From a virus (lineage: Duplodnaviria; Caudoviricetes), in IMG/VR virus record IMGVR_UViG_3300015050_001523, positions 64,001 through 128,000 of that record: a stretch of DNA of 64,000 bases; one strand, 5' to 3'. Below the pieces are notes generated by a model. It had not been told where the DNA came from. It did no database searches and worked only from the letters and a program-made list of their open reading frames with translations. Below are positions 9,429-39,946 of this stretch, piece by piece; within the stretch, counting starts at the first letter, position 1; each line of letters opens with the position of its first letter. The translations under genes were made by a program, and so were the position numbers.

Positions 9429-11924
9429 TTATTTGATCTTTAATTTATTTTCACTAAGAACCATTTTGACAACGGTTCCTTGTTTTACATTGTTTGTAAG
9501 AAGATATTCAGAAAGAGGTTTCAAAATTTCTTGTTTCATTAGCCTCTTTAAAGGTCGTGCGCCATATTTTGGATCATATCCATTTTCAGCTAACCATTCA
9601 CGAGCTTCAGTTGAAAGTTCTAAACTTAAATCTCTTTCACCAAGTCTTTTTTGAAGAGATTTCATTTGAATATCAAGAATGTTTATCATGTGCTCTTTGT
9701 AAAGAGGATGAAAGTAAATCATTGAATCAATTCTATTTAGAAACTCTGGTCGAAATTTGCTTTGAAGCAACTTATCTCTCGCTTCGCTAAGAGATTCTTC
9801 GTCATGATCTTGAAAATAAAGCTCTGAGCCAATATTTGAAGTTAACAATATTATTGTATTGGTAAAATCAACTGTTCTTCCTTGAGTATCTGTTAATCTT
9901 CCTTCATCAAAAACTTGAAGCATGATATTCCAAACATCTGGATGTGCTTTTTCTACTTCATCTAAAAGAACAATTGAATATGGTCGATGTCGTACAGCTT
10001 CAGTTAATTGCCCTCCTTCACTATATCCAACATATCCAGGAGGAGAACCTACCAAACGGGAAACAGAATGTTTCTCCATGTATTCACTCATATCAATTCT
10101 TACAATTGCTGATTCATCATCAAATAAGAATTCAGCAAGAGCCTTGGCTAATTCGGTTTTGCCAACACCGCTAGGACCAAGAAACAGAAAGGTTCCGACC
10201 GGCGCTTTTGGATCGGTTAGTCCTGCGCGGCTTTGGCGAATAGCATCAGAAATCGCAGAAATTGCTGGGTGTTGCCCAACAACTCTTTCATGCAATCTAT
10301 CTTCCATTAACATAAGAGAACTTTGGGTTTTTTGCTGAAGCATTTTTTCAGCAGGAATTCCTGTCCATGAAGAAATAACTTTTGCAATATCTGCTTCTTC
10401 AACTTTGTCTCGAAGATAGCTACATCCTGACTCTTGAATCTTTTTCAGAAGATCGGCATATTTTGAATACTGTTTTTCTAGTTGAGGAATATCAACATTC
10501 AAAATATTTTTTGCCAAATCAAGATTATCATCTTTTTCAGCATTTTTGACGGAATTCTTCAATGCCTCTATTGATTCAGTAATTGATTTTATTTTGCCAA
10601 TTGCTGTTTTCTCTTCTTCCCAAGAAGCTCTCATTTTCTCAACTTCAGATTCTAATTTTTTAATTTCATTATTTATTTTGATTTTTCGTTCTTTATTTTT
10701 TCTTGACTCTTCAAGGGATGAAGATTCTACATTCAACCGAAGAATTTTTCGTTCTTTTTCATCGATAACAGCCGGAAGACTTTCGATATCCATTTTCAAT
10801 TCTGCGCAAGCCTCATCAACCAAATCAATAGCTTTGTCTGGGAGACTTCTGTTTTGAATATATCGAGCACTTAGTTTTGCTGCTGCAATAAGGGCAGAAT
10901 CTTGAATAGTTAATCCATGATGATTTTGGAACTTATCGCGCAATCCTCGCAAAATGGCAATTGAATCTTCAATTGATGGCTCATTGATTCGGATTGACTG
11001 AAATCGTCGCTCTAGCTGTGGATCTTTTTCAATATATTTTTTGTATGCATCAGTTGTAGATGCGCCAATGCAACGAATTTCTCCATTGGCCAAAGCTGGT
11101 TTTAGAATGCTTGCAGCATCTTGGCCACTCTCGCTTGAACCTGTTCCCATAATGTTATGAAGATCATCAATAAATAAAATGATATCTTTTGCTTTTGAAA
11201 TGGAGGTAATAACTCCTTTTAGTCTTTCTTCAAACTGTCCTCGAAACTGGGCTCCTGCCACAAGGCTTGATAGATCAAGCTGCAAAATGGTAATATTTTT
11301 TAGAGAATCAGGAACATCATTCTTTGCAATTCTTTGAGCGATTGCAAAAACGATGCTCGTTTTACCAACCCCAGACTCTCCAATAATAACAGGATTATTT
11401 TTATTTCTTCGGCTTAAAGTTTGAATTGCCCGACGAACTTCTTGATCTCGACCAATTACAGGGTCGAGCTGGTCTTGCCTTGCAAGCCTGGTGAGGTCCC
11501 TGGTATAATTTGATAGCTCTTCTCCATATTCTTTGGGCGACACAACTTTATTGAGATCAAGTCCTTCTAAAATATGTTTGGTAGCATTTAATTCCATCAT
11601 TGCAAGAATTAAATGGTCAACAGATATTGTATTTTTTGTTTTTGTTGCAGCGACATTAAGCATTTCTTCAATATCGCTTGAATTTCTGGGATCACCAAAC
11701 CTATTGGTTCTAGGAATCTTTGTTAGTTCTTCTTTCAGACTCAAAGAAATGTCTTTAAGAGAACCTCCTGCATTTTTAATTAGAGCCTTATTTTTTTCAT
11801 CATGAATAAGCACAGCCAAAACATGAAGGGTTGTAAACTCCTGATGTTTTAGTCTTTTTGCTTGTTCAACTGCTTTAACAATAATTTTTCGGGCTGATTC
11901 TGAAACGTTTGATGGATTAAACAT
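9429..11924 (-). CDS. clpB: ClpB chaperone/disaggregase
   Basis: Clp N domain, LDPVIGRD, GESGVGKT, coiled-coil M domain, FLFLGPSGVGKTELAKALA, RIDMSEYME, GARPL; no IGF/IGL loop seen. Confidence 0.95.
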   Translation of the reverse strand: MFNPSNVSESARKIIVKAVEQAKRLKHQEFTTLHVLAVLIHDEKNKALIKNAGGSLKDISLSLKEELTKIPRTNRFGDPRNSSDIEEMLNVAATKTKNTISVDHLILAMMELNATKHILEGLDLNKVVSPKEYGEELSNYTRDLTRLARQDQLDPVIGRDQEVRRAIQTLSRRNKNNPVIIGESGVGKTSIVFAIAQRIAKNDVPDSLKNITILQLDLSSLVAGAQFRGQFEERLKGVITSISKAKDIILFIDDLHNIMGTGSSESGQDAASILKPALANGEIRCIGASTTDAYKKYIEKDPQLERRFQSIRINEPSIEDSIAILRGLRDKFQNHHGLTIQDSALIAAAKLSARYIQNRSLPDKAIDLVDEACAELKMDIESLPAVIDEKERKILRLNVESSSLEESRKNKERKIKINNEIKKLESEVEKMRASWEEEKTAIGKIKSITESIEALKNSVKNAEKDDNLDLAKNILNVDIPQLEKQYSKYADLLKKIQESGCSYLRDKVEEADIAKVISSWTGIPAEKMLQQKTQSSLMLMEDRLHERVVGQHPAISAISDAIRQSRAGLTDPKAPVGTFLFLGPSGVGKTELAKALAEFLFDDESAIVRIDMSEYMEKHSVSRLVGSPPGYVGYSEGGQLTEAVRHRPYSIVLLDEVEKAHPDVWNIMLQVFDEGRLTDTQGRTVDFTNTIILLTSNIGSELYFQDHDEESLSEARDKLLQSKFRPEFLNRIDSMIYFHPLYKEHMINILDIQMKSLQKRLGERDLSLELSTEAREWLAENGYDPKYGARPLKRLMKQEILKPLSEYLLTNNVKQGTVVKMVLSENKLKIK

Positions 11925-19923: not shown

Positions 19924-20397
19924 TTATCTTCCTATTAGTTCTATTCGATTTAATGTGTTACTTTGTTTTTTTAATTTCAATTCAAGTTCTCTAATTGCTT
20001 CTTCTAGAACTACAGCCAACATTTCTAAATGCTCTACTCTTTCTTCTAGGGTTTTTGTAGTGGCAAGATTGGATGGATTGTGTAAGGAGAAAAGCCAAGC
20101 TAATACGTCACGTGTATAAAAAACGTGGTCTTTATCGATCTGGGCTTTAAAACCGACTCGTTTGCCACGCATATGATTACTTAGACTATTCCACAGCTCA
20201 TTAGAAAGATTCTTTTTAAGCTTTGCAATAGTCCATCCTATCGCCGTGTCAGGTTGTTCTCCAATGATTAACATGATTAATTCTTGTTCGTGCAACTCCG
20301 CATTTTTAGCAGGTTGCGCTATGGAGCTATTCTGTGGGCGATTCCATTTTGGAGAATTATTAATAAAATCCATAAAGTTATTCCTATCTAATTTCAT
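19924..20397 (-). CDS. hypothetical protein (C-terminal coiled coil)
   Basis: Tiling ORF. Confidence 0.65.
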   Translation of the reverse strand: MKLDRNNFMDFINNSPKWNRPQNSSIAQPAKNAELHEQELIMLIIGEQPDTAIGWTIAKLKKNLSNELWNSLSNHMRGKRVGFKAQIDKDHVFYTRDVLAWLFSLHNPSNLATTKTLEERVEHLEMLAVVLEEAIRELELKLKKQSNTLNRIELIGR

Positions 20398-21412
20398 AAC
20401 CTTCTAAAATAAGATTATCTCGAAGTAAGTTATTTAGATTATTTACTTCATTATTCAAAAGAGAACGGTCTAAAGATCTACAATTTATTCTATAGCAATA
20501 TGAAGTTTTTCCATTTTTGTTTGTAAATTTATCAATTTGCACAACAGATTCTGCCAAATCTCCAAAAACATTTCTAACATGTTCATAAAAATCATTTGGA
20601 GAATAATTATCTGGCTCCCAAAAAGAGATATCTTTATAGCATAAAGGATATTTTGAATAAGGTTGAAATTTTGTAATTTCTCCTTCTTTGAATTGAGACA
20701 AAAAGCGATCGTCTTTTGACCAGAAAAGTCTAATATCTGGAATCTCAAAAAGAATCATTGCCAATCTTTCAAGTCCCAATCCGAAAGCCCATCCCAAATT
20801 TGAAACTTTACAATTAGACAAAATTTCTTGATGAATTACTCCACAACCAAGAACTTCTAATTTTTTATCATTCCAATTTACTTCAAATTCAAATGAAGGT
20901 TCTGTAAATGGAAAATATGAATTTGTAATTTCATATGTGCATTCAGGAAATAAATAAGAAACTAAAGAAGATAAAGTTGACAATAAATCTTTTTCAATGT
21001 CTTCTTTTGATGCATTTGGGATTATTTTTACTCCCTCCATTTGATGGAATACTGGATAATGAGAAGAATCAATTTCGTCCCTCCTAAAGACAGGGCCAGA
21101 AACTAAAAACCTTTCTTCTTTTTTATTTAGAAAATATGTTTGATGTGCAGAAGTATGCGTCCTTAAAACTTTGTTATTGTCTAAATAATAAGTGTCAGAA
21201 ACGCTTCTAGAAACATGATCTTTTGGAATCAAAAGGCTATCAAAATTATCATATATTTCAACAATAGGATCTAAAGAATCAAAACATTTAAATTCTTCAC
21301 CAAAGAATGATTGGATTCTTTTTTTGATAATTGATATTGGATGATTTGGAATTAGATGAAGATTTCTATCTTTTATTTTCCAAATATTTTCTGGAATGTT
21401 TAATCCTATCAT
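20384..21412 (-). CDS. pheS: monomeric (mitochondrial-type) phenylalanyl-tRNA synthetase: catalytic domain plus FDX-ACB
   Basis: NFDSLLIP.DH.SR..D.YY, LRTHTSAHQ, FRRDEIDSSHYPVFHQMEG, YFPFTEPSFE, GWAFGLGLERLAM, C-terminal YP..KDISFW..DKF..CYRI. Confidence 0.92.
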   Translation of the reverse strand: MIGLNIPENIWKIKDRNLHLIPNHPISIIKKRIQSFFGEEFKCFDSLDPIVEIYDNFDSLLIPKDHVSRSVSDTYYLDNNKVLRTHTSAHQTYFLNKKEERFLVSGPVFRRDEIDSSHYPVFHQMEGVKIIPNASKEDIEKDLLSTLSSLVSYLFPECTYEITNSYFPFTEPSFEFEVNWNDKKLEVLGCGVIHQEILSNCKVSNLGWAFGLGLERLAMILFEIPDIRLFWSKDDRFLSQFKEGEITKFQPYSKYPLCYKDISFWEPDNYSPNDFYEHVRNVFGDLAESVVQIDKFTNKNGKTSYCYRINCRSLDRSLLNNEVNNLNNLLRDNLILEGYEIR

Positions 21413-21428: not shown

Positions 21429-21986
21429 TTATTTTGATAATTCCATTGATATACTGTGCATGGCGATTCCCGAAGCCGTCCCAACATTAACACTTCTTAC
21501 TGAGCCTCGCTGTTCAATATGAACAACCTTGTCACAAATTTCTAGGATTTCTGGCTGCAATCCTTGCTGTTCTTCTCCAAAAAAGAGCAAAGAATTTGGT
21601 TCCCATTTATGTTCTTTTAATGGGGTAGAAACTCCTGGAATTATATCCATTGCAATAAAATGTGAATATTTGCTGCGCAAATCAATAATTTGATTAATTG
21701 ATGAAAGATAAATTACATCTGAGTAGTGGTACGATCCGATTGCTCCTCTTTTATCAAACTTTTTTCGAGGACCATAATAAAAAATTTCTTGGGCACCAAA
21801 TGCATTTCCATTTCTGATCAAAGTTGAAAAATTAAAATCTCCATGAATCTGCATCATTATTGGAGCAAAAGGAAGAGTTAATTTTTGGATTTCATTTTTG
21901 ATTTCTTCGGTTGTCATTCCTTTGTATTGGTCAACAACATTTCCAAAATTGCCATTATTTGGTGCAGTATCTGGTAAAGTATTCAT
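21429..21986 (-). CDS. SpoU/TrmH-family (SPOUT) RNA methyltransferase
   Basis: N..TLIRN..AFG, FGEEQQGL, RSVNVGTASGI. Confidence 0.85.
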   Translation of the reverse strand: MNTLPDTAPNNGNFGNVVDQYKGMTTEEIKNEIQKLTLPFAPIMMQIHGDFNFSTLIRNGNAFGAQEIFYYGPRKKFDKRGAIGSYHYSDVIYLSSINQIIDLRSKYSHFIAMDIIPGVSTPLKEHKWEPNSLLFFGEEQQGLQPEILEICDKVVHIEQRGSVRSVNVGTASGIAMHSISMELSK

Positions 21987-23503: not shown

Positions 23504-24097
23504 TTAGGTCTGAAAATTTCTAAAAGTTATATTAATTCTGGGCTTCCAAACCTTAGTTCTTTTAGGAAGAGAATGATCCCAATTTTTTTGAGTTTCTCCT
23601 TCCATCAAAAGCAAACTCCCATTTTCAAGAATTATTTTTCTTTTATTTTTATGATCGGTTTTTTTTCTTAATAAGAAATCTCGTTCGGCGCCAAAGCTAA
23701 CACTTGCAATTTTTGAACCAATTTCTGATTCATCATCAGAATGCCAGCCAACAACATTCAAACCTGTCTCATATAAATTAACAAGGGCAGAATTAAATGT
23801 TGTTTTACAAATTCCTTCAATTTTATTTTTTATATCTAAAAGAGAAGATGACCAATAAATTGGTTCAAGTTTTATTCCAGAATAGATATAAACTATATCA
23901 GGACTATCGGCAAACCATTGATGTTTTCGTGGAACATTATGTGTTTTTCCATATACAGAAATTTTGTCTTGCCTCCAAAGAATTGAATTAAATAATTTTT
24001 CGAAAATCAAATTGGGATTTTCAAAATTTACAATGTTTGGAGGATAGTAATTAACAACTCCCGAATTATCATCAATAATTGATATTGAATTCGTCAT
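23504..24097 (-). CDS. alkB: AlkB-family 2OG-Fe(II) dioxygenase
   Basis: FNSALVNLY..G...GWHSDDE, IASVSFG, LENGSLL.M, HSLPK, RINITFR. Confidence 0.9.
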   Translation of the reverse strand: MTNSISIIDDNSGVVNYYPPNIVNFENPNLIFEKLFNSILWRQDKISVYGKTHNVPRKHQWFADSPDIVYIYSGIKLEPIYWSSSLLDIKNKIEGICKTTFNSALVNLYETGLNVVGWHSDDESEIGSKIASVSFGAERDFLLRKKTDHKNKRKIILENGSLLLMEGETQKNWDHSLPKRTKVWKPRINITFRNFQT

Positions 24098-25069: not shown

Positions 25070-25489
25070 TTAATATAATTTAAGATCTTTGGTAATTGGA
25101 TCAATTTTTGAAGAGAAATCTGGCCCAATTGCAACAGTTGTATAGGTCTCAATTCCTTTAAATTCTGTCCTTCCTGAATCCTTTATTATTGAACAAATTA
25201 TATTTGAATCATTTGCTTTATTGTAAATATCTAAAAGTTCTTGTTCTGAATCAACAGTTAAACAAATTTTTGTAAATGAGCCTTGCATCCATTTGTGCAT
25301 GGCCTCTGAATTATGAACAAACTTGCAACAATACTCATTGTTTATATTTGAATCAATATTGTTTGAATTTTGTTCTTTCATTAAGTTTAAAAAAACTGCA
25401 AGAGAAGCATGGGCACCTTGGGCGACTTCTTTTCCCCTTCTCATTTTTAAATCTTTTCTAATTACTATAACTTGTTTTATATCGCTCAT
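25070..25489 (-). CDS. pth2: peptidyl-tRNA hydrolase, Pth2 type
   Basis: KQVIVIRKDLKMRRGKEVAQGAHA, TKI.L.V.SE.EL, DSGRTEF, T.VAIGP, LKLY. Confidence 0.93.
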   Translation of the reverse strand: MSDIKQVIVIRKDLKMRRGKEVAQGAHASLAVFLNLMKEQNSNNIDSNINNEYCCKFVHNSEAMHKWMQGSFTKICLTVDSEQELLDIYNKANDSNIICSIIKDSGRTEFKGIETYTTVAIGPDFSSKIDPITKDLKLY

Positions 25490-38986: not shown

Positions 38987-39946
38987 TCAAGGGATTAGGA
39001 AAGCAGGTTCGACATAGTTAGAGGCTTTTTTGCCTTTTTGAATATAAGTCAAAACTGCTGATTCTTTTGCCTTGCACTCGCACATTACCCAGGCACTTGT
39101 TTTATAATCAGTAACTTCTTCATAAATCCAATCTGCATGCGCCCTAGCCATCTGGTCAGGCGATTCATGATTTATTGTGGAAGAAAAATGAAATACAGGA
39201 GCAATATTGTCTGGCCATGTAGATGCCGCCATATTTGCAGCAGCTTTATGATTCATATTGCTTGAACAAAATTTGTGATGATGAACATCAAATACAATTG
39301 GAACATTTATATTCTTATAAACAAGATCATATAGATCTTTTACTGAATATTGAGAAGACTTATCATCATTTTCTATAGTTAGACGTTTTTTTGTATTTTC
39401 ATTTAGATCTTCAAATGATTTACAAAACCTTACAGCAGCTTTATCTTTTCCGTCCTGGGTTGTACTAATATGAATATTGATTTTATTCCAAACAGACGGA
39501 ACAAATCCCATCTCATCAAAAATTTGAGAATGTTGATTGAGTTCTTTTATTGTCTTGGAGATAACATTAGGATTAAGTGATGCCAAAACATTAAAATGGC
39601 CAGGATGAAAGGTTAGCCTTTGATTATATTTAGTTGCCAAATCTCCAACCAATTTCAAATTTTTTGCAATAAGGGACCAATTAGGAAGATCGGTTAGTTC
39701 GTACTCTGACATCCATGGAAATAAATTGGAGGAGATACGAAAAAATTTTATTCCATTTTTTTCATTCCATTCAACAATTTTTGCAAGATCTTTAATATTT
39801 TGCAATGCCAAATTGGATACTTTTTTATTTGAAGTCTTTTGAGCTTCAAAAGTTTTTTTAATCATTCCTCTACTTGTAAAAATTCCTTGTTCTTTTTGAA
39901 GCCTGTCATTGATGCAAGGGTATCCAAGGCGTTTATTTATTTCCAT
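38987..39946 (-). CDS. uvsE: UV DNA damage endonuclease UvsE
   Basis: RLGYPCIN, FFRISSNLFP, RLTFHPGHFNVL, IENDDK, VFDVHHH, AHADWI, ECKAKE. Confidence 0.93.
   Translation of the reverse strand: MEINKRLGYPCINDRLQKEQGIFTSRGMIKKTFEAQKTSNKKVSNLALQNIKDLAKIVEWNEKNGIKFFRISSNLFPWMSEYELTDLPNWSLIAKNLKLVGDLATKYNQRLTFHPGHFNVLASLNPNVISKTIKELNQHSQIFDEMGFVPSVWNKINIHISTTQDGKDKAAVRFCKSFEDLNENTKKRLTIENDDKSSQYSVKDLYDLVYKNINVPIVFDVHHHKFCSSNMNHKAAANMAASTWPDNIAPVFHFSSTINHESPDQMARAHADWIYEEVTDYKTSAWVMCECKAKESAVLTYIQKGKKASNYVEPAFLIP

What the first reader, a model, noticed from the sequence alone, without database searches (positions are those of the whole stretch)
20384..21412. Monomeric mitochondrial-type PheRS in a bacteriophage
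Seen: a 342-aa class II catalytic domain fused to a C-terminal FDX-ACB anticodon-binding domain. Established: this is the organellar (FARS2-like) architecture, whereas bacteria mostly use an (alpha-beta)2 enzyme with an editing domain. No tRNA-Phe is present in the window. Inference: a minimal, editing-less PheRS supports the heavy UUU/Phe use of an AT-rich phage, or bypasses host PheRS inactivation. It also bears on the origin of the organellar enzyme.
Basis: partly seen in the sequence, partly recalled or inferred. Interest (0 to 1): 0.6.

Follow-up and report, generated by a model that had tools for sequence, protein, structure and literature searches.

The report
Mitochondrial-type phenylalanyl-tRNA synthetase in jumbo phages
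A large uncultured bacteriophage carries an intact one-piece enzyme for loading phenylalanine onto tRNA, built like the one in our mitochondria; the same enzyme occurs in about 30 other phage records, so phages are an overlooked reservoir, and a possible but unproven source, of the mitochondrial enzyme.

Summary
Confirmed. 20384-21412(-) is an intact 342-aa single-chain PheRS (class II core plus FDX-ACB; TIGR00469 376 bits, cut-off 258; model TM 0.93 to human FARS2). The contig is a 322-kb T4-like phage, not a giant virus or organelle.

The phage has a tRNA-Phe(GAA), 55 kb past the window, with a rewired core that Rfam misses. The AT-rich/UUU idea also fails: carrier loci span 27-62% GC.

The gene occurs in 31 IMG/VR prokaryote-virus records, is under purifying selection, and often sits beside tRNA-maintenance genes. 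It most likely keeps Phe-tRNA supplied during infection; activity is untested. It is not an obligate partner of the odd tRNA, which four complete phages carry without it.

In trees the query lies outside the monophyletic organellar clade. Phage monophyly is rejected, and so is an organelle-plus-giant-virus clade once CPR homologues are included. The root is unresolved, so a phage origin of mitochondrial PheRS is allowed, not shown.

I found no paper on the phage form. This scan already noted the architecture in CPR and other bacteria, and one note mentioned huge-phage copies.

The parts
20384..21412 (-). Single-chain (PheRS-M type) phenylalanyl-tRNA synthetase, 342 aa, no targeting peptide, no editing domain. 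Its likely substrate, the phage's tRNA-Phe(GAA), lies outside the window at G000:C1:183400-183472 (-).
   Evidence: tRNA:
20690..21367 (-). Class IIc catalytic domain (aa 16-241); motif 2 (HYPVFHQMEG), Phe-pocket loop (YFPFTEPS) and motif 3 (AFGLGLERL) intact
20411..20656 (-). FDX-ACB anticodon-binding domain (aa 253-334), homologous to the C-terminal domain of bacterial PheT
21429..21986 (-). SpoU/TrmH-family RNA 2'-O-methyltransferase directly upstream (16-bp gap, same strand; co-transcription inferred, substrate unknown)
19924..20397 (-). 157-aa ORF of no known family, overlapping the PheRS stop by 14 bp (translational coupling inferred)
25070..25489 (-). PTH2 peptidyl-tRNA hydrolase in the same gene run; a PTH2 also lies near PheRS in other phage lineages
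6737..7942 (-). T4 Rnl1-like RNA ligase (tRNA-repair type); context only

Best explanation
The gene encodes an active monomeric PheRS that works like mitochondrial PheRS. The class II core makes Phe-AMP, the fused FDX-ACB domain reads the GAA anticodon, and the enzyme transfers Phe to tRNA with no beta subunit and no editing. It is made during infection and charges the phage's own tRNA-Phe(GAA) and probably the host's. It belongs to a phage tRNA-maintenance kit (tRNA array, RNA ligase, PTH2, methyltransferase, Ro60) that keeps translation supplied when the host tRNA pool is degraded or cut. The one-piece form suits a phage because it is a single 1-kb gene, needs no host partner, and reads few tRNA features (G1-C72, A73, anticodon), so it tolerates drifted phage tRNAs. 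Shown here: intact fold and active site, purifying selection, wide phage distribution, co-occurring tRNA-Phe, neighbourhood. Inferred: catalytic activity (about 0.9 likely), monomeric state, timing, and the selective purpose (about 0.6).
For: Catalytic and Phe-pocket residues are invariant across 25 aligned homologues and match human FARS2. The model has pLDDT 94.9 and TM 0.93 to 3CMQ. dN/dS is 0.075-0.17 in six phage pairs where dS could be computed, some near saturation. 31 prokaryote-virus records in IMG/VR carry the gene. 10 of 12 carriers at least 73% complete have one or more tRNA-Phe(GAA), 5 have two or more, and 23 of 25 parsed hits keep G1-C72. Neighbours in other phages include Thg1, a CCA-adding enzyme, PTH2 and a truncated AlaRS. 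Mitochondrial PheRS has broad tRNA specificity with identity at G1-C72, A73 and the anticodon (PMC9976931). Huge-phage synthetases were proposed to charge phage tRNA variants (PMC7162821). A phage-activated bacterial Schlafen gives cleavage signatures on tRNA-Phe(GAA) among other tRNAs (PMC13056530).
Against: No activity assay exists. Most phages with tRNA-Phe do without the enzyme (0 of 34 control records, 15 of them near-complete), so it is dispensable in general. tRNA-Phe of carriers has not lost the E. coli determinants U20+U59 more often than controls (13/25 versus 39/68). PheRS is the only synthetase found in this genome, which a general tRNA-supply role does not explain. The host is unknown.
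Confidence: 0.6

Rival explanations
1. Bypass of a disabled host PheRS: a host defence, toxin or antibiotic blocks the (alpha-beta)2 enzyme, and the differently built one-piece enzyme is insensitive to it.
For: It would explain why only PheRS is carried here. Bacteroidota keep a one-piece copy beside a normal pheT, in one genome next to a Vat resistance gene, as expected of a resistant back-up paralogue (concept in PMC5388404).
Against: My searches returned no anti-phage system that targets PheRS. Several carriers also hold other synthetases, which fits general supply better. It is not exclusive of the best explanation.
Confidence: 0.15
2. Dedicated orthogonal pair: the rewired G8-type tRNA-Phe cannot be charged by the host and needs this enzyme.
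For: This phage's only tRNA-Phe has G8, G14, C15:G48 and A59-A60, and Rfam misses it. Four other PheRS carriers have the same tRNA type.
Against: Four complete phage genomes with terminal repeats carry the G8-type tRNA and no PheRS. The four co-carriers belong to one clade. The tRNAs of those PheRS-less phages keep U59, whereas this phage's copy does not, so a dependence specific to this phage is still possible.
Confidence: 0.12
3. Codon demand: the enzyme supports heavy UUU/Phe use by an AT-rich phage.
For: The genome is 33.6% GC and 83% of its Phe codons are UUU.
Against: Phe content is ordinary at 4.9%. One tRNA-Phe(GAA) reads both codons, so UUU bias does not raise synthetase demand (established knowledge). 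Carrier loci reach 62% GC with 6% UUU and 3.4% Phe.
Confidence: 0.05
4. Non-canonical ligase, as the NCBIfam name 'PheS-related mystery ligase SrmL' allows: it activates another amino acid or acylates a non-tRNA acceptor.
For: The related Bacteroidota clade is accessory and of untested function.
Against: The query misses the NF051887 cut-off (254 versus 300) and passes pheS_mito. The Phe-pocket residues and the anticodon-binding domain are intact. tRNA-Phe co-occurs in most near-complete carriers.
Confidence: 0.06
5. Artefact or recent capture: the contig is a eukaryotic virus or organelle, or the gene was recently taken from a eukaryote.
For: Many top homologues are eukaryotic organellar enzymes at 50-57% identity.
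Against: Gp23, terminase and sheath genes are present. The gene's GC3 (0.16) is within the genome's spread (mean 0.24, sd 0.10). There is no presequence. All 42 regrafts of the query clade inside the eukaryote clade are rejected (best AU p 0.035, all others at most 0.0015).
Confidence: 0.02

Closest known systems
Mitochondrial/plastid monomeric PheRS (PheRS-M; human FARS2, yeast Msf1; TIGR00469; PDB 3CMQ, 3TUP)
   Same: Domain order, fold (TM 0.93, 43% identity), active-site motifs, no editing domain; passes the TIGR00469 cut-off.
   Different: Phage-encoded; 342 aa; no targeting peptide; lacks the insertion that human FARS2 has after motif 2; falls outside the organellar clade; activity untested.
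Nucleocytovirus PheRS (Kijima et al. 2024, PMC11304981)
   Same: Viral, single gene, organellar type, proposed monomer; about 45-54% identical to the query.
   Different: That study did not include phages (0 mentions) and grouped the viral enzyme with organelles. With phages added, the giant-virus clade sits next to T4-like jumbo-phage sequences in most trees, and an organelle-plus-giant-virus clade is rejected when CPR homologues are included (AU p 0.011 and 0.006). Without them the test is mixed (p 0.041 and 0.11).
NCBIfam NF051887 'PheS-related mystery ligase SrmL' (accessory one-piece enzyme; Bacteroidota copies pass its cut-off)
   Same: Same two-domain architecture and size, about 48-51% identity.
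   Different: The query scores under the cut-off (254 versus 300) and lies outside that clade. The bacterial carriers also keep pheT.
Single-chain PheRS of Patescibacteria/CPR (lead from earlier scan notes)
   Same: Catalytic core fused to FDX-ACB.
   Different: About 380-390 aa, 36-42% identical; forms a long-branched clade that is sister to all other one-piece enzymes in my trees; reported by earlier notes as a housekeeping replacement of pheST (not checked here).
Aminoacyl-tRNA synthetases of huge phages (Al-Shayeb et al. 2020, PMC7162821)
   Same: Phage-borne synthetase beside a large tRNA set, proposed to charge phage tRNA variants.
   Different: Those were described as related to host enzymes. 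This one is not of the host (alpha-beta)2 type, and PheRS is not discussed in that paper's main text (0 mentions; one automatic annotation in the supplementary files searched).

Membership tests
PheRS-M (mitochondrial-type monomeric PheRS) | Class IIc catalytic domain fused to a C-terminal FDX-ACB domain in one chain | tested here: met
PheRS-M (mitochondrial-type monomeric PheRS) | Score above the TIGR00469 cut-off and below the bacterial pheS cut-off | tested here: met
   376 > 258 and 181 < 237
PheRS-M (mitochondrial-type monomeric PheRS) | Intact class II motifs and Phe-binding pocket | tested here: met
   T170 and A209 correspond to E. coli PheS T251 and A294 (that numbering is from my own knowledge).
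PheRS-M (mitochondrial-type monomeric PheRS) | No beta subunit or B3/4 editing domain | tested here: met
   (control rings in 14 of 14); the genome is about 93% complete
PheRS-M (mitochondrial-type monomeric PheRS) | Active as a monomer; charges tRNA-Phe with Phe | not testable with these tools
   needs biochemistry
Eukaryotic organellar PheRS clade (FARS2/Msf1 orthologues) | Organelle-targeting presequence and nuclear encoding | tested here: not met
   no N-terminal extension; phage genome
Eukaryotic organellar PheRS clade (FARS2/Msf1 orthologues) | Placement inside the eukaryote clade | tested here: not met
   all 42 placements rejected; sister position not rejected (AU p 0.38-0.63)
NF051887 SrmL | Score at or above 300 bits and placement in the clade that passes it | tested here: not met
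   254 bits; outside the Bacteroidota clade
Bacterial (alpha-beta)2 PheRS alpha subunit | N-terminal coiled-coil arm, adjacent pheT, TIGR00468 cut-off | tested here: not met
Obligate orthogonal synthetase:tRNA pair | The tRNA type occurs only together with the synthetase | tested here: not met
   4 of 5 complete genomes with the G8-type tRNA-Phe lack the enzyme

The most novel reading that the evidence does not exclude
The one-piece PheRS diversified mainly in large bacteriophages. The mitochondrial enzyme, present before the last eukaryotic common ancestor, and separately the giant-virus and Bacteroidota copies, were taken from phage lineages. FARS2 would then be a phage-derived translation enzyme, alongside the phage-type mitochondrial RNA and DNA polymerases, with this phage's lineage among the nearest living relatives.
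Probability: 0.3. Interest if true: 0.85.

Novelty: new member of a known kind. Interest (0 to 1): 0.55.

Why it matters
The enzyme type is known. Its spread across many jumbo-phage lineages seems undescribed in the papers I could search. That spread changes the question of where mitochondrial PheRS came from: the published giant-virus study lacked these sequences, and adding them weakens the organelle-plus-giant-virus grouping and makes a phage origin testable. At 342 aa it is also a very small natural PheRS, a simple system for studying how phages keep translation running and a candidate scaffold for genetic-code engineering. The rewired G8-type tRNA-Phe is a by-product of interest because Rfam missed this genome's copy.

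Tried and rejected
1. Obligate pairing with the G8-type tRNA-Phe: rejected as a general rule.
2. Loss of the host identity elements U20/U59 in carriers' tRNA-Phe: no difference from controls. The controls were chosen by a canonical D-arm, so D-arm drift could not be compared.
4. AT-rich/UUU demand: rejected.
5. Other synthetases in this genome: none found with PF00579, PF00587, PF00152, PF00133, PF00749, PF01411 or a motif scan. Arg, Cys and Met families were not searched with their own models. No PolyA_pol-type CCA-adding enzyme.
6. Relatives chosen by capsid protein: none of 25 carried PheRS, but all are fragments of 4-65% completeness, so this is uninformative.
7. Cultured phages: no full-length homologue among 50,697 GenBank phage records, only catalytic-domain matches, the annotated one being host-type pheS. 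PHROGs covers only the catalytic domain.
8. Host: not determined; nearest cultured capsid matches are 43% or lower.
9. Promoter scan: at chance level.
10. The full mixture-model tree with bootstraps did not finish; support values are SH-aLRT and constrained searches were short.
11. Ten paper searches found no description of a phage PheRS-M; subscription papers are mostly not covered.

Full report
Observation. The stretch 20384-21412 is an open frame on the minus strand encoding 342 aa. It has a class IIc catalytic domain at aa 16-241 and an FDX-ACB anticodon-binding domain at aa 253-334. It passes the cut-off of the mitochondrial PheRS model TIGR00469 (376 versus 258). It fails those of bacterial pheS (181 versus 237) and of NF051887 'PheS-related mystery ligase SrmL' (254 versus 300). 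The closest solved structures are human mitochondrial PheRS, by sequence (E 3.7e-94) and by fold (model pLDDT 94.9, TM 0.93 to 3CMQ). Motif 2, the aromatic Phe-pocket loop and motif 3 are intact and largely invariant across 25 aligned homologues.

The genome. The window is part of a single 322,518-bp virus record, 33.6% GC and about 93% complete. It has a Gp23 major capsid protein, a terminase and two sheath-like genes. There is no NCLDV capsid hit, although that search had a blank control. It is therefore a T4-like jumbo phage. No B3/4 editing domain and no other synthetase was found. The host could not be named.

The missing tRNA. The window holds 8 tRNAs and none is Phe. The genome has about 37, including one tRNA-Phe(GAA) at C1:183400-183472, 55 kb past the window. 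It folds as a cloverleaf and keeps G1-C72, A73 and U20. Its core is rewired (G8, G14, C15:G48, G21), and it has G37-C38 and A59-A60. Rfam's tRNA model misses it while finding its neighbours. A pattern for this core found 25 IMG/VR contigs, all with full tRNA-Phe cloverleaves in tRNA arrays. Only four of them, from one clade, carry the synthetase, and four complete genomes do not. The tRNA type therefore does not need this enzyme in general.

Distribution. Relatives were found at 42 IMG/VR loci. Of these, 31 are held as prokaryote-virus records, several with capsid, terminase or sheath genes. The other 11 are giant-virus-like or eukaryotic, judged by GVMAG names and by ankyrin and RING neighbours. 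Many further 330-345-aa homologues lie on short contigs; those checked have phage-like gene arrays, but four rows labelled phage in my trees (P0027, P0037, P0045, P0084) were not checked. Bacteroidota carry an accessory copy that passes NF051887 and also keep pheT. Patescibacteria carry a more distant one-piece enzyme; earlier scan notes gave that lead. No GenBank phage record has a full-length homologue.

Selection and context. dN/dS is 0.075-0.17 in six phage pairs, some near saturation. Carrier loci range from 27% to 62% GC, and UUU makes up 6-87% of their Phe codons. Phe is 4.9% of codons in this genome. Here the gene follows a SpoU methyltransferase and lies near PTH2, and the genome also has an Rnl1-like ligase and a Ro60 protein. 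In other phages it lies beside Thg1, PTH2, a CCA-adding enzyme or a truncated AlaRS. Ten of 12 carriers at least 73% complete have tRNA-Phe(GAA), five have two or more, and nearly all copies keep G1-C72 and A73. Those bases are the identity set of mitochondrial PheRS, which charges tRNA-Phe from many sources (PMC9976931). Control phage tRNAs keep the same bases, though, and U20+U59 is no rarer in carriers (13/25 versus 39/68). None of 34 control records has the enzyme.

Mechanism. The best reading is an active, non-editing, monomeric PheRS that charges phage and probably host tRNA-Phe during infection, as part of a tRNA-maintenance kit (confidence 0.6; activity alone about 0.9). The fold, active site, selection, distribution and neighbourhood are shown. 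Activity, monomeric state, timing and purpose are inferred. tRNA-cleaving defences make such supply plausible, and one Schlafen system shows cleavage signatures on tRNA-Phe (PMC13056530). Rivals are bypass of a blocked host PheRS (0.15), a phage-specific pair (0.12), a non-canonical ligase (0.06), codon demand (0.05) and artefact or recent capture (0.02).

Phylogeny. In trees of 69-177 rows, organellar enzymes from plants, algae, stramenopiles, Discoba, fungi and animals form one clade (SH-aLRT 82-99; taxa). One eukaryote-like contig (P0106) falls outside it. The query and two 67%-identical relatives lie outside that clade, and all 42 regrafts inside it are rejected, so this is not a recent capture from a sampled eukaryote group. 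Phage monophyly is rejected under both models, with or without CPR sequences (AU p 0.005-0.033). An organelle-plus-giant-virus clade is rejected with CPR included (p 0.011 and 0.006) and mixed without (0.041 and 0.11). The giant-virus clade usually joins T4-like jumbo-phage sequences. The mixture-model trees nest the organellar clade among phage rows, near the query's lineage, with weak support (85-88). However, 'eukaryotes sister to all other non-CPR one-piece enzymes' is not rejected (p 0.37-0.48), nor is eukaryotes plus CPR (0.09-0.23), and the root moved between runs. The direction of transfer is therefore open. Limits: 340 columns, short searches, no bootstrap, some labels inferred.

Comparison and novelty. 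The protein works like PheRS-M and meets that family's sequence and architecture tests, but it is not a member of the eukaryotic organellar clade or of NF051887. Organellar-type PheRS in giant viruses is published (PMC11304981, which does not mention phages). Synthetases in huge phages are published too (PMC7162821), but as host-related enzymes. Ten paper searches found no account of a phage PheRS-M. Phage origins of mitochondrial DNA and RNA polymerases are accepted precedent (PMC4558845). This scan had already noted the architecture in CPR and other bacteria, and one note mentioned copies in huge phages.

Verdict. Real and intact; a new member of a known kind in an apparently undescribed and widespread phage lineage. 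Interest 0.55. A phage origin of mitochondrial PheRS has probability about 0.3 and would deserve 0.85.

Noticed in passing
G000:C1:183400-183472 (-); L134-L158: Conserved phage tRNA-Phe(GAA) subfamily with a rewired core (U7:R66, G8, G14, Y15, R48, 4-nt variable loop) in 25 IMG/VR contigs. This genome's copy is missed by Rfam RF00005; blastn with two members found nothing in GenBank phages.
   Followed up: partly
G000:C1:183206-183279 (-): Divergent tRNA-like gene with a GUG (His) anticodon and an odd D-arm, 120 bp from tRNA-Phe. ARAGORN misses it; Rfam gives 30.4 bits.
   Followed up: no
G000:C1:180146-181747 (-) and about 182084-182189 (-): Ro60/TROVE protein inside the tRNA array, with a YrlA-like Y-RNA match beside it (35.7 bits, under the gathering score).
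   Followed up: partly
G000 tRNA set: Only about 1 of 37 tRNA genes encodes CCA, yet no PolyA_pol-type CCA-adding enzyme was found. tRNA-Tyr and tRNA-Ser(UGA) also appear to lack U8.
   Followed up: no
L087:3858-4015, L086:4904-5083, L283:3800-3874 (G006); L273:5452-5844 (G022): Two 520-540-kb carriers hold three to four or more diversified tRNA-Phe genes with varied bases at 37-38. G006 also has a cloverleaf with an 8-nt anticodon loop containing GAA.
   Followed up: partly
L031 and L051: Contigs binned as Nitrospiraceae and Ca. Berkiella MAGs carry phage-clade PheRS. L051 shares gene order with the G009 phage clade, so it is probably mis-binned phage DNA.
   Followed up: partly
L404:1101-2249 (P0106): A eukaryote-like contig (next to a SNARE gene) encodes a presequence-bearing PheRS that falls among phage rows, not in the organellar clade: either a later replacement or a long-branch artefact.
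   Followed up: no
L406:6783-7625: A 280-aa truncated AlaRS (catalytic domain only) lies directly upstream of the phage-like PheRS that is often sister to the organellar clade.
   Followed up: no
L045:6037-6813 and related Bacteroidota loci: The accessory one-piece PheRS sits next to a Vat streptogramin acetyltransferase in Pedobacter, hinting at a resistance or stress role.
   Followed up: no
window 23504-24097, 38987-39946, 9429-11924; G000:C1:187063-188733: AlkB-like 2OG-Fe(II) oxygenase, UvsE endonuclease, a ClpB-like chaperone, and a homologue of a PARP found near PheRS in another phage clade.
   Followed up: no
L096 (LR745206.1, 635-kb phage): A very distant PheRS-like ORF (359 aa, 26% identity over query aa 17-283) that was left out of the trees.
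   Followed up: no
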